Source of the DNA: a virus
UHGV virus genome: UHGV-0143126
DNA: 19,594 nt
Reading direction: 5' to 3' (one strand)
Part shown: in pieces, positions 15,249 to 19,594 of the stretch
Position numbering within the stretch: the stretch's first letter is position 1
How the letters are laid out: each line of letters starts with the position of its first letter
Made by a program: the position numbers and the translations under genes
Notes under the pieces: model-generated
Told to the model about the DNA's origin: nothing
The model's input: the letters and a program-made list of their open reading frames with translations, nothing else
The model's database searches: none

Positions 15249-16331
15249 TTAGAACTGATAAACCAGACCTACAGCGGCGATGTCGTCGGTATCAATACCA
15301 GCTGTTTTGGTAAACTTACTATCGTCAATTAAGTTGATTTTGTAATCAACAAAAGTGGACATGTTTTTATTAAAGTAGTAAGTAGCACCGACATCGACAT
15401 ACTTGACTAAGTCTCGGTCACCATGAACACCAAGGTCTTTACCTTTTGACTGAAGGTAAGCAACAGATGGGCGCAGACCGAAGTCAAACTGATATTGTGC
15501 TACTGCTTCAAAGTTTTGTGCTTTGTTTGCAATATGGTTATTACCAAAAACGGTCATATTCTGAGTTTCAGAATATGTGGTAGCCAGATAGATATTGTTC
15601 GCATCATATTTCAGGCCTGCAGCCCATACTTCCGCATTTTTGCCGGAGGCATTGAATTTGCTCTTACCATAGGCGACCTGACCGTCAGTGCGATCTGATT
15701 TAGCATAGGTTGCACCCACGCCGAATCCTTCATACTCATAAGTAGTGGAGAAACCGAAACCATCACCATTGGCTTCAGTTACGTCAGTGCGGTCATTTTT
15801 ACCCTGATACTGAGCAGCAAAGTTCAGGCCATCGACCAGACCAAAGAAGTCGTTGTTACGATAAGTTGCAACACCAGTTGCACGTTGAGTCATGAACACG
15901 TCGGTTTGAGTCCAAGTGTCACCACCGAATTCTGGCAGGACGTCAGTCCACGCACCGATGTCGTATGCTACACCGTAGTTACGGCCGTAATCGATGGAGC
16001 CGTAGTCACCGAATTTCAGGCCAGCGAAGGCAAGACGGGTTTTATCTTTGGAGGAACCTTGAGATTCAGCGCGGTTGCCTTTGAATTCATATTCCCACTG
16101 ACCGAAACCAGTCAGTTGATCGTTGATTTGGGTTTCACCTTTGAAGCCAAGACGGGCATAAGTAGTATCACCATCATCTGCATCATTAGAGGAGAAGTAG
16201 TGCTTAGCATTAACTTTCCCGTACAGATCCAACTTGTTACTGTCTTTATTATAAATTTCAGCTGCCTGAGCAGACATCGCCATCAGTACTGATGCAGCTA
16301 CAGCAGAAATTGCCACTGTTAATTTTTTCAT
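15249..16331 (-). CDS. nmpC: OmpC/NmpC-family outer-membrane porin, intact, 360 aa
   Basis: Signal peptide [23 protein letters not shown], mature start AEIYNKD, porin repeats, C-terminal ...VGLVYQF. Start set at ATG 16331 rather than the upstream in-frame ATG at 16391. Confidence 0.8.
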
Positions 16332-16757
16332 CGTGAGCCCTTTTTTTGAACTATTATTAAAAAATGATGTCACTGCGCGATAAATATTCATCTAATCAAT
16401 GTGATTATTTCAAGATGTAAGTTTTGGTTTCTCGTTTGATTTGTGAAGTAGATCTCTATTTTTATCTGAACTTTTTTCTATCGAATCCTATTCATGGCTC
16501 TTGGCTGAATAAAAATAAATCTATTAGCCAATTTATATTAATGTCTGTTATTTATAAGCGCTCTATAATTTGAAGGTTCAATTTAAACAGGCTAAAAATA
16601 ACACTGGAAATTATTTGTTGGTTATTTGTTGAGATTTGCTTATGTATTTGTAGTGGTGTTTTCAATACTCGGTAGCATTCTCGCAAATATCATTTAGTGG
16701 TTTACGTACGTAAAAAATTGGTTATGCTATTAAGAGTGGTCACTTCGTCACACAGCT

Positions 16758-16791
16758 TAAACCCGCCGTCGAGCGGGTTTTTCCATTTTTT
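16758..16791 (+). terminator. Plus-strand intrinsic terminator ~110 nt upstream of the holin gene
   Basis: AAACCCGC-CGUCGA-GCGGGUUU followed by TTCCATTTTTT. Confidence 0.6.
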
Positions 16792-16903
16792 GAGTCTCGA
16801 TATTAGCTGATAACCCAATACCTGAGTTATTCACTGACTCCGAGTCTGTTACGTTTCGTAGTATTCCCTCAATTTACACCCGCTTTGTCTGCGAGGTGGG
16901 GTT

Positions 16904-17119
16904 ATGAAATCCATGGATAAGTTAACAACGGGTGTCGCCTATGGCACCTCAGCAGGTAGTGCCGGATACTGGTTTTTACAGCTGCTAGATAAAGTCACGC
17001 CCTCACAGTGGGCGGCAATTGGAGTGCTGGGTAGCCTGGTATTTGGCCTGCTGACGTACCTGACAAACCTTTATTTCAAGATTAAAGAAGATAAGCGCAA
17101 GGCTGCGAGAGGTGGATAA
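16904..17119 (+). CDS. S: Class II pinholin of S21 type with dual-start motif (M1/M4: antiholin/holin), 71 aa
   Basis: [28 protein letters not shown]...; two TM segments; GAGGTGGGG RBS; stop overlaps the endolysin start (TAATG). Confidence 0.85.
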
Positions 17120-17616
17120 TGCCTCCATCATTACGAAAAGCTGTTGCTGCTGCTATTGGTGGCGGGGCTATTGCTATAGCATCTGTGTTAATCACTGGCC
17201 CAAGTGGTAACGATGGTCTGGAAGGTGTGAGACATAATCCTTACAAAGACATAGTTGGTGTATGGACTGTATGTTACGGGCATACAGGAAAAGACATCAT
17301 TCCCGGTAAAACGTATACCGAAGCAGAGTGCAAAGCCCTCCTGAATAAAGACCTTGCCACTGTCGCCAGACAAATTAACCCGTACATCAAAGTCGATATA
17401 CCGGAAACAACGCGCGGCGCTCTTTACTCGTTCGTCTACAACGTGGGTGCTGGCAATTTCAGAACATCGACGCTTCTTCGCAAAATCAACCAGGGCGATA
17501 TCAAAGGCGCATGTGACCAGCTACGTCGCTGGACATACGCTGGCGGTAAGCAATGGAAAGGGCTGATGACTCGCCGTGAGATTGAGCGTGAAGTCTGTTT
17601 GTGGGGGCAGCAATGA
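17119..17616 (+). CDS. R: SAR endolysin (T4-lysozyme-like, R21 type), 165 aa
   Basis: N-terminal Gly/Ala-rich signal-anchor-release segment [16 protein letters not shown]; catalytic E-x8-D-x5-T ([16 protein letters not shown]). Confidence 0.9.
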
Positions 17617-18050
17617 GCAGGTTAACCACGATTATCTCCGCTCTGGTTATCTGCATCATCGTCTGTCTGTCATGGGCTGTTAATCATTACCGTGATAACG
17701 CCATTACCTATAAAGAACAGCGCGATAAAGCCACGTACATCATCGCTGACATGCAGAAGCGTCAACGTGACGTAGCAGAACTCGATGCCAGATATACAAA
17801 GGAGCTTGCTGATGCTAACGCGACTATCGAAAGTCTCCGTGCTGATGTTTCTGCTGGGCGTAAGCGCCTGCAAGTCGCCGCCACCTGTGCAAAGTCAACG
17901 ACCGGAGCCAGCGGCATGGGCGATGGAGAAAGCCCAGGACTTACAGCAGATGCTGAACTCAATTATTACCGTCTCCGAAGTGGAATCGACAAGATAACCG
18001 CGCAGGTTAACTACCTGCAGGAATACATCAGGACGCAATGCCTTCGATGA
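17613..18050 (+). CDS. Rz: Rz i-spanin, 146 aa
   Basis: N-terminal TM ([21 protein letters not shown]), coiled-coil body; ATGA overlap with the endolysin stop. Confidence 0.8.
17812..17997 (+). CDS. Rz1: Rz1 o-spanin lipoprotein embedded in the +1 frame of Rz, 61 aa
   Basis: AGGAG RBS 6 nt before ATG 17812; lipobox (LLGVSAC) followed by a Pro-rich stretch [13 protein letters not shown]; wholly inside Rz. Confidence 0.7.
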
Positions 18051-18223
18051 TAGCGATAATTTTACTCATCATCCTTCACATCTGGCTCTGTAGACAGGGT
18101 GGCGATCACTTCTGGAGAGAATCCAGATTAAACATCTCATTGCTGATGCTTGATATTGAGCATCTGGCGCGCGGTAAGGGGCAGCGTTGAGATAAGAGCC
18201 AGTCATTACAAATGCCAGGATTT

Positions 18224-18250
18224 AGCCCCGCATTTGCGGGGCTTTTTATT
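18224..18250 (+). terminator. Intrinsic terminator after the lysis cassette
   Basis: AGCCCCGC-AUUU-GCGGGGCU followed by TTTTATT. Confidence 0.6.
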
Positions 18251-18268
18251 GCAACAAAGGTAAAGACG

Positions 18269-18556
18269 ATGGATGAAGAATATCGTAAAGACCTGCAACT
18301 GTGGTTTGGTCTTACGCATGCGCCGTTCTGCGTGATGCCGCGAGTATTCATGGAGGCTATGCCGCCAGAATGGCAAGAGAAGATGGCTCAGTTGCTTTTT
18401 GAGTATAGCGACACAATCAAAACGGATGTCTGCGGAGTTCACAGCTGTTTTGTTACTGCCAAAGACGGCAACAACCGCTTTATGAGGATGCCAGAAGATA
18501 TTCTGAACTATCGTCATCCCCGGCGTGAATTCATCGAATCAGTTCTGAAGAAGTAG
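18269..18556 (+). CDS. Hypothetical protein, 95 aa
   Basis: ATG with AAGG RBS 19 nt after the terminator; the ORF-track N-terminal extension covers the terminator and is rejected. Confidence 0.5.
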   Translation: MDEEYRKDLQLWFGLTHAPFCVMPRVFMEAMPPEWQEKMAQLLFEYSDTIKTDVCGVHSCFVTAKDGNNRFMRMPEDILNYRHPRREFIESVLKK

Positions 18557-18842
18557 CCATTACAAAGCCTATCTACGGGTGGGCTTGATAATGGCTTATA
18601 CCCTACACGGGATAACTTAACTGATATCCCTTTTAAAGGATAAAGGTATTCAAGCCTGACACATCATGCGCTGTATCGTCGCCGTATTCCCGTATTAACA
18701 GAGACCGTAGCCCGACGGGGAACTCCTTCTGCGCGAGTGTGCGGGAATAATCAAAAACGATGCACACCGGGGTTACCGGGTACACATATTTCATCATGCC
18801 AGCGAGTCCGGTTCTGGCACGGAAGAAACCGGACGTTATGAT

Positions 18843-19253
18843 TTAGTGCGGAAATATTTGTGTAGTGTTCTGAATGTTCTCAGTAAAGAGTAATGAATTA
18901 TCAAAGGTATAGTAATACCTTTTGTTTTCGTGGATATTTGTAATCCATCTGAAAACCCCTGCTGTAGCAAGATTTTTCCTGTATTCGTAAAATGATAACT
19001 CTCCTGATTTGAATCCTTTTAAGGTGGCTTCTATAAGGCATTTATTTTTTGAAAATCTTACATTTACAACCTTACCCTGTCCTTTTATTAAAACCGTATT
19101 ATCGTTTTCAAGAACAAGATGAATATTCTCTGTGGCTAAATAGTAAATGTAATGTGAGACATTTTGACGTTTTAGTTCAGAATAAAACCAGTGATAGTTT
19201 AAATTATTTCGCACTTTATCGAATATTTGTTTAAAAATGGCAACCTGAGCCAT
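18843..19253 (-). CDS. Hypothetical protein, 136 aa, markedly AT-rich (cargo/moron)
   Basis: GGAAGG RBS 8 nt before ATG 19253; GC content visibly below neighbouring phage genes; Tyr/Asn/Lys-rich. Confidence 0.5.
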
Positions 19254-19310
19254 TGTAGTACCTTCCATGTGATATGAGGGGGCGTAGTCTGCACGATTAT
19301 CTAAATTGCT

Positions 19311-19544
19311 TCAATCTGGTCTAACCTGTTTTCTGAGCAATTCAGTAATGTCACTCTTTTCTTTGTTTGCTTCAGGCGAAACTCTTTTTTCTGAGCACAG
19401 TCTCCGGCGGCAGGCTTCAATGACCCAGGCTGAGAAATTCCCGGACCCTTTTTGAACAAGAGCGATGTTAATTTGTTCAATCATTTGGTTAGGAAAGCGG
19501 ATGTTGCGGGTTGTTGTTCTGCGGGTTTTGTTCTTCGTTGACAT
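19311..19544 (-). CDS. Small putative ribbon-helix-helix-like DNA-binding protein, 77 aa
   Basis: Basic N-terminus then ...TRNIRFPNQMIEQINIALVQKGSGNFSAWVIEACRRRL..., compatible with a beta-strand/helix/helix fold; 57 nt upstream of the AT-rich gene, same strand. Confidence 0.45.
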   Translation of the reverse strand: MSTKNKTRRTTTRNIRFPNQMIEQINIALVQKGSGNFSAWVIEACRRRLCSEKRVSPEANKEKSDITELLRKQVRPD

Positions 19545-19594
19545 GAGGTTGCCCCGTATTCAGTGTCGCTGATTTGTATTGTCTGAAGTTGTTT

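What the first reader, a model, noticed from the sequence alone, without database searches (positions are those of the whole stretch)
18843..19594. AT-rich reverse-strand cargo pair after the lysis genes: RHH-like small protein plus 136-aa protein
Downstream of the lysis cassette, where lambdoid phages commonly carry morons such as bor, two minus-strand genes lie head-to-tail 57 nt apart. The upstream one is small and basic with a ribbon-helix-helix-like pattern. The downstream one is conspicuously AT-rich compared with the rest of the prophage, which points to separate acquisition. A small DNA-binding protein followed by a larger protein is the layout of many toxin-antitoxin and abortive-infection modules, though I found no known toxin motif. 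The window ends 50 nt beyond the first gene, so the promoter region is cut off.
Basis: partly seen in the sequence, partly recalled or inferred. Interest (0 to 1): 0.5.

Follow-up and report, generated by a model that had tools for sequence, protein, structure and literature searches.

The report
Known lambdoid ynfO–ydfO accessory genes
The two reverse-strand genes are this prophage's copies of ynfO and ydfO, two long-known but uncharacterised genes that sit at the right end of phage lambda and in most E. coli genomes; they behave as independent accessory genes, not as a toxin-antitoxin or defence pair.

Summary
A 77-aa basic ORF (19311-19544, minus) lies 57 nt upstream of a 136-aa ORF (18843-19253, minus) with 31% GC, and the window ends 50 nt past the first gene.

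- **Identity.** The genes are DUF3950 (YlcI/YnfO family) and DUF1398 (YdfO/YbcV family; PDB 2HH8). Their anatomy matches ynfO-ydfO of the E. coli K-12 Qin prophage exactly. The same genes occur in DLP12 and in phage lambda itself.
- **Prevalence.** The 752-bp region matches 70% of complete E. coli genomes.
- **Location.** The pair lies about 200 nt left of cosN, opposite the late operon.
- **Independence.** 154 phage records carry the DUF3950 gene but only 43 carry DUF1398. Twenty chromosomal DUF1398 genes in other enterobacteria have no DUF3950 neighbour. A mosaic joint separates the two genes, and DUF1398 carries its own conserved leader.
- **No defence or toxin signal.** PADLOC gives no significant hit and Pfam finds no toxin family. 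Lambda's copy is dispensable.
- **RHH fold.** A ribbon-helix-helix fold for the small protein is plausible but unproven.

Most likely these are host-regulated, moron-like prophage genes: one is a small DNA-binding protein, the other a non-enzymatic protein of unknown role. This is already known and of low interest.

The parts
19311..19544 (-). 77-aa YlcI/YnfO-family (DUF3950) gene. The conserved N-terminal 50 residues form a probable ribbon-helix-helix-like DNA-binding core. Residues 51-77 are a variable tail created by a mosaic junction. The stop codon is TGA.
   Evidence: Pfam PF13132, 72.9 bits against a cutoff of 25; NCBIfam NF041551, 35.3 against 30. 96% identical to K-12 YnfO. Core invariant and tail variable. 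dN/dS 0.07-0.27. AF2 helices at 19-32 and 34-52.
19254..19310 (-). 57-nt spacer forming most of a roughly 75-nt leader that travels with the DUF1398 gene. It holds the -10-like GATAAT (19296-19301) and the Shine-Dalgarno GGAAGG. The -35-like TAGACC and the palindrome GGTtAGACC overlap the last codons of the upstream gene (up to 19323).
   Evidence: Promoter-like site TAGACC-16-GATAAT at 19323..19296 (not more frequent than in shuffles). The leader is conserved between window/Qin and lambda/DLP12 although the upstream gene differs. PdhR gSELEX sites are reported at the equivalent K-12 positions (PMC7660256).
18843..19253 (-). 136-aa DUF1398 (YdfO/YbcV family) gene. The protein is AT-rich-encoded, soluble and basic, with no transmembrane segment and no conserved catalytic-type residues.
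   Evidence: Pfam PF07166, 145 bits. PDB 2HH8 YdfO, E 4e-66. 74-76% identical to YdfO, YbcV and lambda's copy. Maximum Kyte-Doolittle 19-residue window 0.39. Invariant columns are L, T and G only. dN/dS 0.12-0.38.
19545..19594 (-). First 50 nt of the roughly 200-nt cos-proximal upstream region of the small gene. The rest, including cosQ, cosN and a Fur-box palindrome, lies beyond the window end.
   Evidence: Extension in an identical genome (L001). cosN GGGCGGCGACCT lies at L001 5745-5756, which is window coordinate 19744-19755.

Best explanation
These are this prophage's alleles of ynfO (DUF3950) and ydfO (DUF1398). They are the last two genes at the right end of a lambda-type phage chromosome and are transcribed leftward, against the late operon, from the region just inside cos.

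They are two separately mobile accessory genes that happen to be neighbours, not a two-component system.

- **The small protein.** It is most likely a dimeric ribbon-helix-helix-type DNA-binding protein (inferred). Its invariant 50-residue core recognises a target common to lambdoid phages or their host. Its tail is whatever the local recombination junction supplies.
- **The DUF1398 protein.** It has the YdfO fold, lacks any enzyme-like conserved residues, and is made from its own short conserved leader and promoter.
- **Role.** Both are dispensable for lytic growth. Both are expressed at low level from the prophage under host regulators: Fur binds next to cos, and PdhR sites have been reported. 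They therefore act, if at all, in the lysogen as lysogenic-conversion ('moron') genes.

Shown: identity, position, separability, purifying selection, and the non-essentiality of lambda's copy. Inferred: the RHH fold, DNA binding, promoter use, and a role in the lysogen. The physiological role is unknown.
For: - **Family membership.**
- **Same anatomy as Qin.** ynfO (77 aa), 57 nt, ydfO (136 aa), next to nohA. The same genes occur in DLP12 and lambda, with ybcW/lambdap79 inserted between them.
- **Prevalence.** Matches in 3798 of 5426 complete E. coli genomes; 2359 carry the region contiguously.
- **Position.** cosN lies 200 nt upstream, followed by Nu1-type terminase genes.
- **Separability.** 154 phage records have the small gene against 43 with DUF1398. 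In an Stx phage the DUF3950 gene stands alone beside HNH-TerS-TerL. Twenty chromosomal DUF1398 loci in Kluyvera, Klebsiella, Salmonella, Raoultella and Pseudocitrobacter have no YlcI-like ORF within 4 kb. Those examined sit among housekeeping genes or, in Salmonella, a SopE effector gene.
- **Different histories within the locus.** The small gene and the spacer are at least 95% identical to Qin. Identity then drops to 62-92% inside DUF1398.
- **Own leader.** The DUF1398 leader is conserved across different upstream contexts.
- **Non-essentiality.** Lambda's lambdap78 has EOP 1.9 under CRISPRi (PMC10695390), and a viable ybcV::Kan strain exists (PMC3945230).
- **Host regulation.** Fur bound the nohA-upstream site in a gel shift, and that site was selected in vivo (PMC2189734). 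In W3110, Δfur lowers ynfO, ydfO and ybcV by 2-5 log2 units (PMC10164565 supplement). ybcV mRNA falls 10-fold in ΔpdhR (PMC7660256). ydfO is induced 12- to 116-fold by an ionic-liquid shock (PMC4077768).
Against: - **No function demonstrated.** No experiment has shown a function for either protein.
- **Weak promoter calls.** The promoter is a weak consensus match, no more frequent than in shuffled sequence. No intrinsic terminator follows the DUF1398 gene.
- **Inconsistent Fur effect.** W3110 shows it; MG1655 does not, and expression there is near zero. The direction, down in Δfur, is not simple repression.
- **No shared operator.** Upstream DNA of the small gene is unrelated between lambda-type and Stx-type phages.
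- **Close linkage persists.** Among near-identical relatives the two genes are almost always adjacent (79 of 80 IMG/VR loci), so a functional link in this lineage is not excluded.
Confidence: 0.6

Rival explanations
1. Type II toxin-antitoxin or abortive-infection module. The small RHH protein would be the antitoxin and autorepressor, and the DUF1398 protein the toxin or effector.
For: - The layout fits: a small basic putative DNA-binding gene lies 57 nt upstream of a larger gene on the same strand.
- The two genes are adjacent in 79 of 80 close relatives.
Against: - DUF1398 occurs alone in 20 chromosomal loci of five genera, with no conserved upstream partner, and in K-12 as ycgX (PMC3509220).
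- The small gene occurs alone in about 110 phage records.
- In lambda and DLP12 an opposite-strand gene and about 650 nt separate the two genes.
- The small protein's C-terminal tail, where RHH antitoxins bind their toxin, is hypervariable, while DUF1398 is conserved.
- A 96%-identical small protein is paired here with a DUF1398 only 74% identical to Qin's.
- PADLOC gives no significant hit (best E 0.033, to Csx23).
- There are no conserved catalytic residues.
- YdfO was produced in quantity for an NMR structure (2HH8; the implication for toxicity is an inference).
Confidence: 0.05
2. Virion or packaging accessory genes. DUF1398 would be a 'head protein' as labelled by PHROGs and RefSeq, or the small DNA-binding protein would assist terminase at cos.
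For: - phrog_413 is labelled 'head protein', and the RefSeq lambda record NC_001416 uses the same label.
- The small gene always lies directly beside the packaging module, next to Nu1/cos in lambda-type phages and next to HNH-TerS in Stx phages.
Against: - Both genes are transcribed opposite to the late operon, which encodes the virion and packaging proteins of lambda.
- Lambda's DUF1398 copy is non-essential under CRISPRi.
- DUF1398 homologues sit among housekeeping genes in non-phage contexts.
- The defective prophages Qin and DLP12 keep both genes intact under purifying selection.
- The older label 'putative envelope protein' is equally unsupported, because there is no hydrophobic segment.
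- No evidence exists that the small protein binds cos.
Confidence: 0.07
3. Phage-phage or phage-host conflict genes acting singly, for example as an anti-defence factor, a superinfection-exclusion factor, or a protein sensed by host immunity, like the neighbouring lambda gene lambdap79.
For: - The same intergenic slot in lambda holds lambdap79, which activates the Vulcan NADase defence. Escape phages lose it by recombination with Qin, which produces exactly the adjacent arrangement seen here (bioRxiv 10.64898/2026.09.04.749371).
- YlcI/YnfO genes are listed among the accessory genes of capsid-forming PICI satellites (PMC13612085).
- The locus is highly mosaic.
Against: - No phenotype has been reported.
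- There are no significant PADLOC hits.
- Chromosomal stand-alone DUF1398 genes in housekeeping neighbourhoods suggest a cellular role rather than a conflict role.
Confidence: 0.12

Closest known systems
ynfO-ydfO of the Qin cryptic prophage, E. coli K-12 (b4533, b1549; YdfO structure PDB 2HH8)
   Same: The anatomy is identical: 77 aa, a 57-nt spacer, then 136 aa, divergent from a Nu1-type terminase gene across cos. The small protein is 96% identical, and the DNA is at least 95% identical through the spacer.
   Different: The DUF1398 allele is only 74% identical to YdfO, with a strongly divergent central part (62-65% DNA identity). The DNA downstream of the stop codon is unrelated.
ylcI-ybcW-ybcV of DLP12, and the right end of phage lambda (64-aa ORF, lambdap79, lambdap78)
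   Same: Both gene families are present in the same orientation and at the same position between the lysis genes and cos. The 75-nt leader of the DUF1398 gene is the same.
   Different: In those loci a plus-strand gene (ybcW/lambdap79) and about 650 nt separate the two genes, the small protein is 64 aa with a different tail, and bor follows. Here there is no ybcW and no bor; a truncated KilA-N-type ORF follows instead.
Arc/Mnt/CopG-type ribbon-helix-helix repressors and RHH antitoxins
   Different: No comparison is statistically significant. DNA binding, dimerisation and target are untested. No cognate toxin exists.
Lambda morons such as bor and lom
   Same: The genes lie in a non-essential region, opposite or independent of late transcription. 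Their base composition is atypical, and they are expressed from the prophage under host control.
   Different: There is no membrane or secretion signal, no known phenotype, and no clear terminator.

Membership tests
DUF1398 / YdfO-like (Pfam PF07166) | Full-length match to the family profile above the curated cutoff. | tested here: met
   145 bits against a cutoff of 22, covering profile positions 1-119 of 119.
DUF1398 / YdfO-like (Pfam PF07166) | Sequence relationship to the solved YdfO structure (2HH8). | tested here: met
   phmmer E 3.8e-66 over residues 1-135. The AF2 model was poor (pLDDT 47) but retrieved only 2HH8.
YlcI/YnfO family (Pfam DUF3950 PF13132; NCBIfam NF041551) | Match above the curated cutoffs, with the conserved core including the NFS motif. 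| tested here: met
   Pfam 72.9 bits against 25; NCBIfam 35.3 against 30. The core MIEQIN...GSGNFSAW is invariant.
Ribbon-helix-helix superfamily | A beta-alpha-alpha fold detectable by structure or profile comparison. | tested here: inconclusive
Ribbon-helix-helix superfamily | Homodimer that inserts a two-stranded sheet into the DNA major groove. | not testable with these tools
   No multimer prediction or binding assay was available.
Type II toxin-antitoxin module | Obligate co-occurrence and co-evolution of the two genes. | tested here: not met
   Each gene occurs widely without the other. A mosaic joint lies between them. The tail of the small protein is variable.
Type II toxin-antitoxin module | The larger protein belongs to, or resembles, a toxin family. 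| tested here: not met
   Pfam finds only DUF1398. PADLOC finds nothing significant. There is no structural neighbour other than 2HH8. No catalytic-type residues are conserved.
Type II toxin-antitoxin module | Toxicity neutralised by the partner. | not testable with these tools
   Only indirect evidence exists: the viable ybcV::Kan strain and stand-alone chromosomal copies.
Known anti-phage defence systems (PADLOC-DB 2.0) | Match to a defence-protein model. | tested here: not met
   The best hit is E 0.033, to Csx23 over 50 residues. There are no hits for the small protein.
Phage moron / lysogenic-conversion gene | Non-essential for lytic growth. | tested here: met
   From the literature: lambdap78 has EOP 1.9 under CRISPRi (PMC10695390). 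The small gene itself was not tested.
Phage moron / lysogenic-conversion gene | Own promoter and terminator, with atypical base composition. | tested here: inconclusive
   Composition is clearly atypical for DUF1398 (GC 0.31). A conserved leader carries a weak promoter-like site. No terminator was found.
Phage moron / lysogenic-conversion gene | Expressed from the repressed prophage. | tested here: inconclusive
   Published RNA-seq counts from K-12 cryptic prophages: in W3110 ydfO is about 21-27 and ynfO about 2-7, while in MG1655 values are about 0-2 (PMC10164565 supplement). There are no data for this prophage.

The most novel reading that the evidence does not exclude
The invariant 50-residue YnfO/YlcI core would be a ribbon-helix-helix regulator placed at the lysis-packaging boundary of many lambdoid phages and some satellites. 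It would read a host signal, iron via the adjacent Fur box, and control DUF1398 or other targets to influence prophage-host or phage-phage conflict, for example exclusion of incoming cos phages. This would be a new, very widespread prophage-encoded regulatory or defence function hidden in phage lambda itself.
Probability: 0.05. Interest if true: 0.6.

Novelty: already known. Interest (0 to 1): 0.15.

Why it matters
The finding matters little as a discovery. The genes are annotated in E. coli K-12 (ynfO, ydfO, ylcI, ybcV). One has a solved structure. Both are present in phage lambda and in most E. coli genomes.

The residual interest is that two of the most common prophage genes in E. coli, including genes of lambda itself, still have no known function. 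The analysis narrows the options:
- They are not a toxin-antitoxin pair.
- DUF1398 is not a head or envelope protein.
- The two genes should be studied separately.
- The small protein is a candidate DNA-binding regulator sitting beside a validated Fur site at cos.

Tried and rejected
1. **Natural fusion proteins.** Two catalogue entries join both domains: P0015 (233 aa, a cluster of 761 sequences) and P0010. I rejected them as real fusions. The DNA carries TGA at the junction and does not translate to the catalogued protein with table 11, so TGA was read as Trp by the gene caller.
2. **Structure prediction of DUF1398.** The model has pLDDT 47, too poor for fold comparison, and retrieved only 2HH8.
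3. **Foldseek, PDB profile search and relaxed Pfam search for the small protein.** None gave a hit.
4. **hhalign of the YlcI alignment against Arc, CopG and Mnt.** The Arc and Mnt alignments were in register but not significant; CopG gave nothing.
5. **A shared operator upstream of the small gene.** The upstream DNA of lambda-type and Stx-type phages is unrelated. The 8-bp inverted repeat seen in this lineage is imperfect in lambda.
6. **A terminator after DUF1398.** The hairpin at 18808-18835 folds no better than shuffled sequence (z -0.19), and no T-run follows it on the minus strand.
7. **Rfam.** Only sub-threshold hits appeared, all on the plus-strand terminator at 18224-18243.
8. **The published claim that YdfO raises oxidative-stress resistance.** PMC4077768 makes this claim, but the cited paper reports YfdO of CPS-53 and never mentions ydfO (PMC3105296).
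9. **A divergent family alignment for locus searching.** A narrower alignment worked.
10. **The lambda ribosome-profiling paper.** It is not held in the library.

Full report
**Observation**

The ORF list and sequence show a 77-aa ORF at 19311-19544 and a 136-aa ORF at 18843-19253, both on the minus strand. The 136-aa start is the ATG preceded by GGAAGG; the mechanical ORF extends to 141 aa from an ATG at 19268. The two ORFs are 57 nt apart, and the window ends 50 nt beyond the first start codon.

The small protein is basic (pI 10.6, net charge +8.5). The larger gene has GC 0.311 and GC3 0.299, against 0.469 for the window. It falls in the lowest 1% of 411-nt windows. The small gene (GC 0.44) is not AT-rich.

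Holin, endolysin and Rz lie just upstream at 16904-18050. The rest of the window is the integrase-to-lysis half of a lambdoid prophage: integrase, CI-like repressor, DnaC/DnaB-type replication genes, DUF968, Q and a porin gene. The description is therefore confirmed.

**Identity**

The larger protein matches Pfam DUF1398 over its whole length (145 bits). It also matches the solved NMR structure of E. coli YdfO (2HH8, E 4e-66). The small protein matches Pfam DUF3950 and the NCBIfam YlcI/YnfO model above their cutoffs.

RefSeq annotates an essentially identical locus in E. coli AST217 as 'YlcI/YnfO family protein' and 'DUF1398 domain-containing protein'. About 390 nt further on come a Nu1-type small terminase, the large terminase, a head-tail joining protein and portal genes. 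The exact lambda cosN 12-mer lies 200 nt upstream of the small gene's start codon, 150 nt beyond the window end.

In E. coli K-12 the Qin prophage has exactly the same anatomy: nohA, 388 nt, ynfO (77 aa), 57 nt, ydfO (136 aa). DLP12 and phage lambda carry the same two genes with a plus-strand gene (ybcW/lambdap79) between them and bor downstream. The window's small protein is 96% identical to YnfO. Its DUF1398 protein is 74-76% identical to YdfO, YbcV and lambda's copy.

The 752-bp region matches 3798 of 5426 complete E. coli genomes. In 2359 of them at least 80% of the region is contiguous, and some genomes hold up to 12 places. These are well-known genes of unknown function.

**Are the two genes a unit?**

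Several independent lines say no.

1. *Phage records.* tblastn finds the small gene in 154 phage records but DUF1398 in only 43. In Stx-converting phages the DUF3950 gene stands alone. It is divergent from an HNH endonuclease-TerS-TerL packaging module that is unrelated to lambda's, and no same-strand gene follows it.
2. *Chromosomal DUF1398 genes.* Twenty loci with divergent DUF1398 genes were found in Kluyvera, Klebsiella, Salmonella diarizonae, Raoultella and Pseudocitrobacter. None contains a YlcI-like ORF within 4 kb, and no upstream ORF is conserved across genera. The neighbours examined in five of these loci are housekeeping genes such as sulfur transport, GAPDH, aldehyde dehydrogenase, a PP-loop protein, DbpA, a POT transporter and a cold-shock-domain protein. 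In Salmonella the neighbour is a SopE effector gene. K-12 also has a stand-alone paralogue, ycgX (PMC3509220).
3. *Different histories within this locus.* DNA identity to Qin is at least 95% through the small gene and the spacer. It falls to 62-92% inside DUF1398 and vanishes after its stop codon. Synonymous divergence is 0.015 for the small gene's core but 0.67 for DUF1398.
4. *Own leader.* The roughly 75 nt upstream of the DUF1398 start codon contain the palindrome GGTnAGACC, GATAAT and GGAAGG. They are conserved between the Qin-type and lambda-type arrangements although the DNA further upstream is unrelated. The DUF1398 gene therefore carries its own leader.
5. *Junction-derived tail.* In the Qin-type arrangement this leader supplies the last codons (…VRPD, then TGA) of the small protein. 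Its C-terminal tail is thus a by-product of a recombination junction. This fits the alignment, in which residues 1-50 are nearly invariant and everything after residue 52 varies freely.

A toxin-binding antitoxin tail would not behave this way. No toxin or defence model matches either protein, and no catalytic-type residue is conserved in DUF1398.

Among near-identical relatives the genes are adjacent in 79 of 80 IMG/VR loci. This reflects shared ancestry of one mosaic block.

**An artefact worth recording**

The two ORFs are in the same frame, separated only by TGA. Protein catalogues contain 'fusions' of both domains: P0015, a cluster of 761 sequences, and P0010. The underlying DNA has TGA at the junction and does not translate to those proteins with table 11. 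The fusions come from gene callers that read TGA as Trp.

**What the proteins are like**

None of this is statistically significant. The ribbon-helix-helix assignment is a reasonable inference, not a result.

The core is equally conserved in lambda-type and Stx-type phages, whose upstream DNA is unrelated. If it binds DNA, its target is probably not simply its own upstream region.

*DUF1398.* The protein is soluble; the maximum Kyte-Doolittle 19-residue window is 0.39. The old label 'putative envelope protein' therefore has no basis.

The 'head protein' label (PHROG 413 and RefSeq lambda) is contradicted on four counts:
- The gene is transcribed against the late operon.
- Lambda's copy is non-essential under CRISPRi (EOP 1.9; PMC10695390).
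- Homologues sit in housekeeping chromosomal contexts.
- The gene persists under purifying selection in defective prophages.

**Regulation (from the literature, plus the sequence)**

A perfect 7-1-7 palindrome, TGATAATgATTATCA, lies between cosN and the small gene, just outside the window. From my own knowledge, it matches the Fur-box consensus. It is conserved, with a different central base, in DLP12 and phage 2H10.

This is the known 'nohA' and 'nohB' Fur site. It was predicted at 22-25 bits. For nohA it was selected in vivo and confirmed by gel shift (PMC2189734). It was assigned to nohA, 233 nt away. It lies about 155 nt from the ynfO start codon.

In W3110, deleting fur lowers ynfO, ydfO, ybcV and ybcW by 2-5 log2 units. 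In MG1655 expression is near zero and unchanged (PMC10164565 supplement).

PdhR gSELEX sites map to the palindrome in the DUF1398 leader in both K-12 copies, and ybcV mRNA drops 10-fold in ΔpdhR (PMC7660256). ydfO is strongly induced by an ionic-liquid cation shock (PMC4077768).

That same paper claims that YdfO raises oxidative-stress resistance. The claim confuses it with YfdO of CPS-53 (PMC3105296).

**Most likely explanation**

These are two independent, host-regulated accessory genes of the lambda-type right end. They are expressed weakly from the prophage and are dispensable for lytic growth. One is a probable small DNA-binding protein. The other is a non-enzymatic YdfO-fold protein of unknown role.

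The toxin-antitoxin/abortive-infection reading is unlikely (about 5%). A virion or packaging role is also unlikely (about 7%). A single-gene role in phage-host conflict remains possible (about 12%). The neighbouring slot in lambda holds lambdap79, the trigger of the Vulcan defence, and escape phages acquire the Qin-type arrangement seen here (bioRxiv 10.64898/2026.09.04.749371).

**Verdict**

The genes are already known, and the interest is low.

Noticed in passing
L001 5692-5706 (about window coordinate 19691-19705, beyond the window end); cosN at L001 5745-5756: A perfect Fur-box-type palindrome, TGATAATgATTATCA, lies just inside cos, between cosN/cosQ and the ynfO-like gene. It is conserved in lambda and Qin, and DLP12 and phage 2H10 keep a perfect palindrome with a different central base. 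It corresponds to the published nohA/nohB Fur site, which was assigned to the terminase gene. It is closer to ynfO (about 155 nt) than to nohA (about 233 nt).
   Followed up: partly
window 19311-19313 (TGA) and 19254-19310: The two ORFs share a reading frame and are separated by a single TGA. Public protein catalogues therefore contain spurious 233-aa and 177-aa 'fusion' proteins (P0015, a cluster of 761 sequences, and P0010), produced by reading TGA as Trp.
   Followed up: yes
window 19310-19326 (minus strand: AACAGGTTAGACCAGAT): A PdhR-box-like palindrome, GGTtAGACC, overlaps the stop region of the small gene and the -35-like element of the DUF1398 leader. It is equivalent to the gSELEX sites reported in K-12 upstream of ybcV and at the ynfO/ydfO junction.
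   Followed up: partly
window 18212-18556 (+) and 18224-18243 (+): A 114-aa ORF matches only the C-terminal part (positions 128-230 of 233) of a PHROG (phrog_3527). The homologous phage region is annotated as a KilA-N-type gene (173 aa in ev099). So the ORF is a truncated remnant occupying the place of bor. A strong intrinsic terminator (AGCCCCGCATTTGCGGGGCT followed by TTTTATT) lies at its 5' end, just after Rz. It also explains the weak Rfam sRNA hits there.
   Followed up: partly
window 18633-18797 (-): A 54-aa ORF lies 45 nt downstream of DUF1398 on the same strand. It is annotated as hypothetical in phage ev099 but not in RefSeq E. coli, and it has no Pfam, PHROG or PADLOC match. Whether it is a gene is unclear.
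   Followed up: no
window 15249-16391 (-) and 16200-16800: A full-length OmpC/NmpC-type porin gene sits on the reverse strand between Q and the holin, as in DLP12. The most AT-rich stretch of the window (GC about 0.29-0.32) follows it.
   Followed up: no
window 3190-4017 (-): An SPFH/Band-7 family protein (275 aa) is encoded in the early-left region near the integrase. It is another reverse-strand accessory gene that may deserve its own look.
   Followed up: no
protein hits: Many error-ridden homologues (about 70-76% identical) come from ENA contigs of about 3.5 kb and from 3.3-3.5-kb 'Escherichia phage Lambda' records. Identical YlcI proteins are also filed under Staphylococcus, Bacillus, Campylobacter phage CJLB-4 and a spider. 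These look like lambda control or spike-in DNA and contamination rather than biology (my inference).
   Followed up: no
literature (PMC4077768 versus PMC3105296): The statement that YdfO overexpression increases oxidative-stress resistance is a citation error. The cited study reports YfdK, YfdO and YfdS of prophage CPS-53 and does not mention ydfO.
   Followed up: yes
L016 4463-4939 and the homologous Kluyvera loci; L024 4662-4964: In Kluyvera and a related enterobacterium, the stand-alone DUF1398 gene is convergent with a cold-shock-domain protein gene. In Qin, ydfO also lies close to cspI. The recurrence may be coincidental.
   Followed up: no
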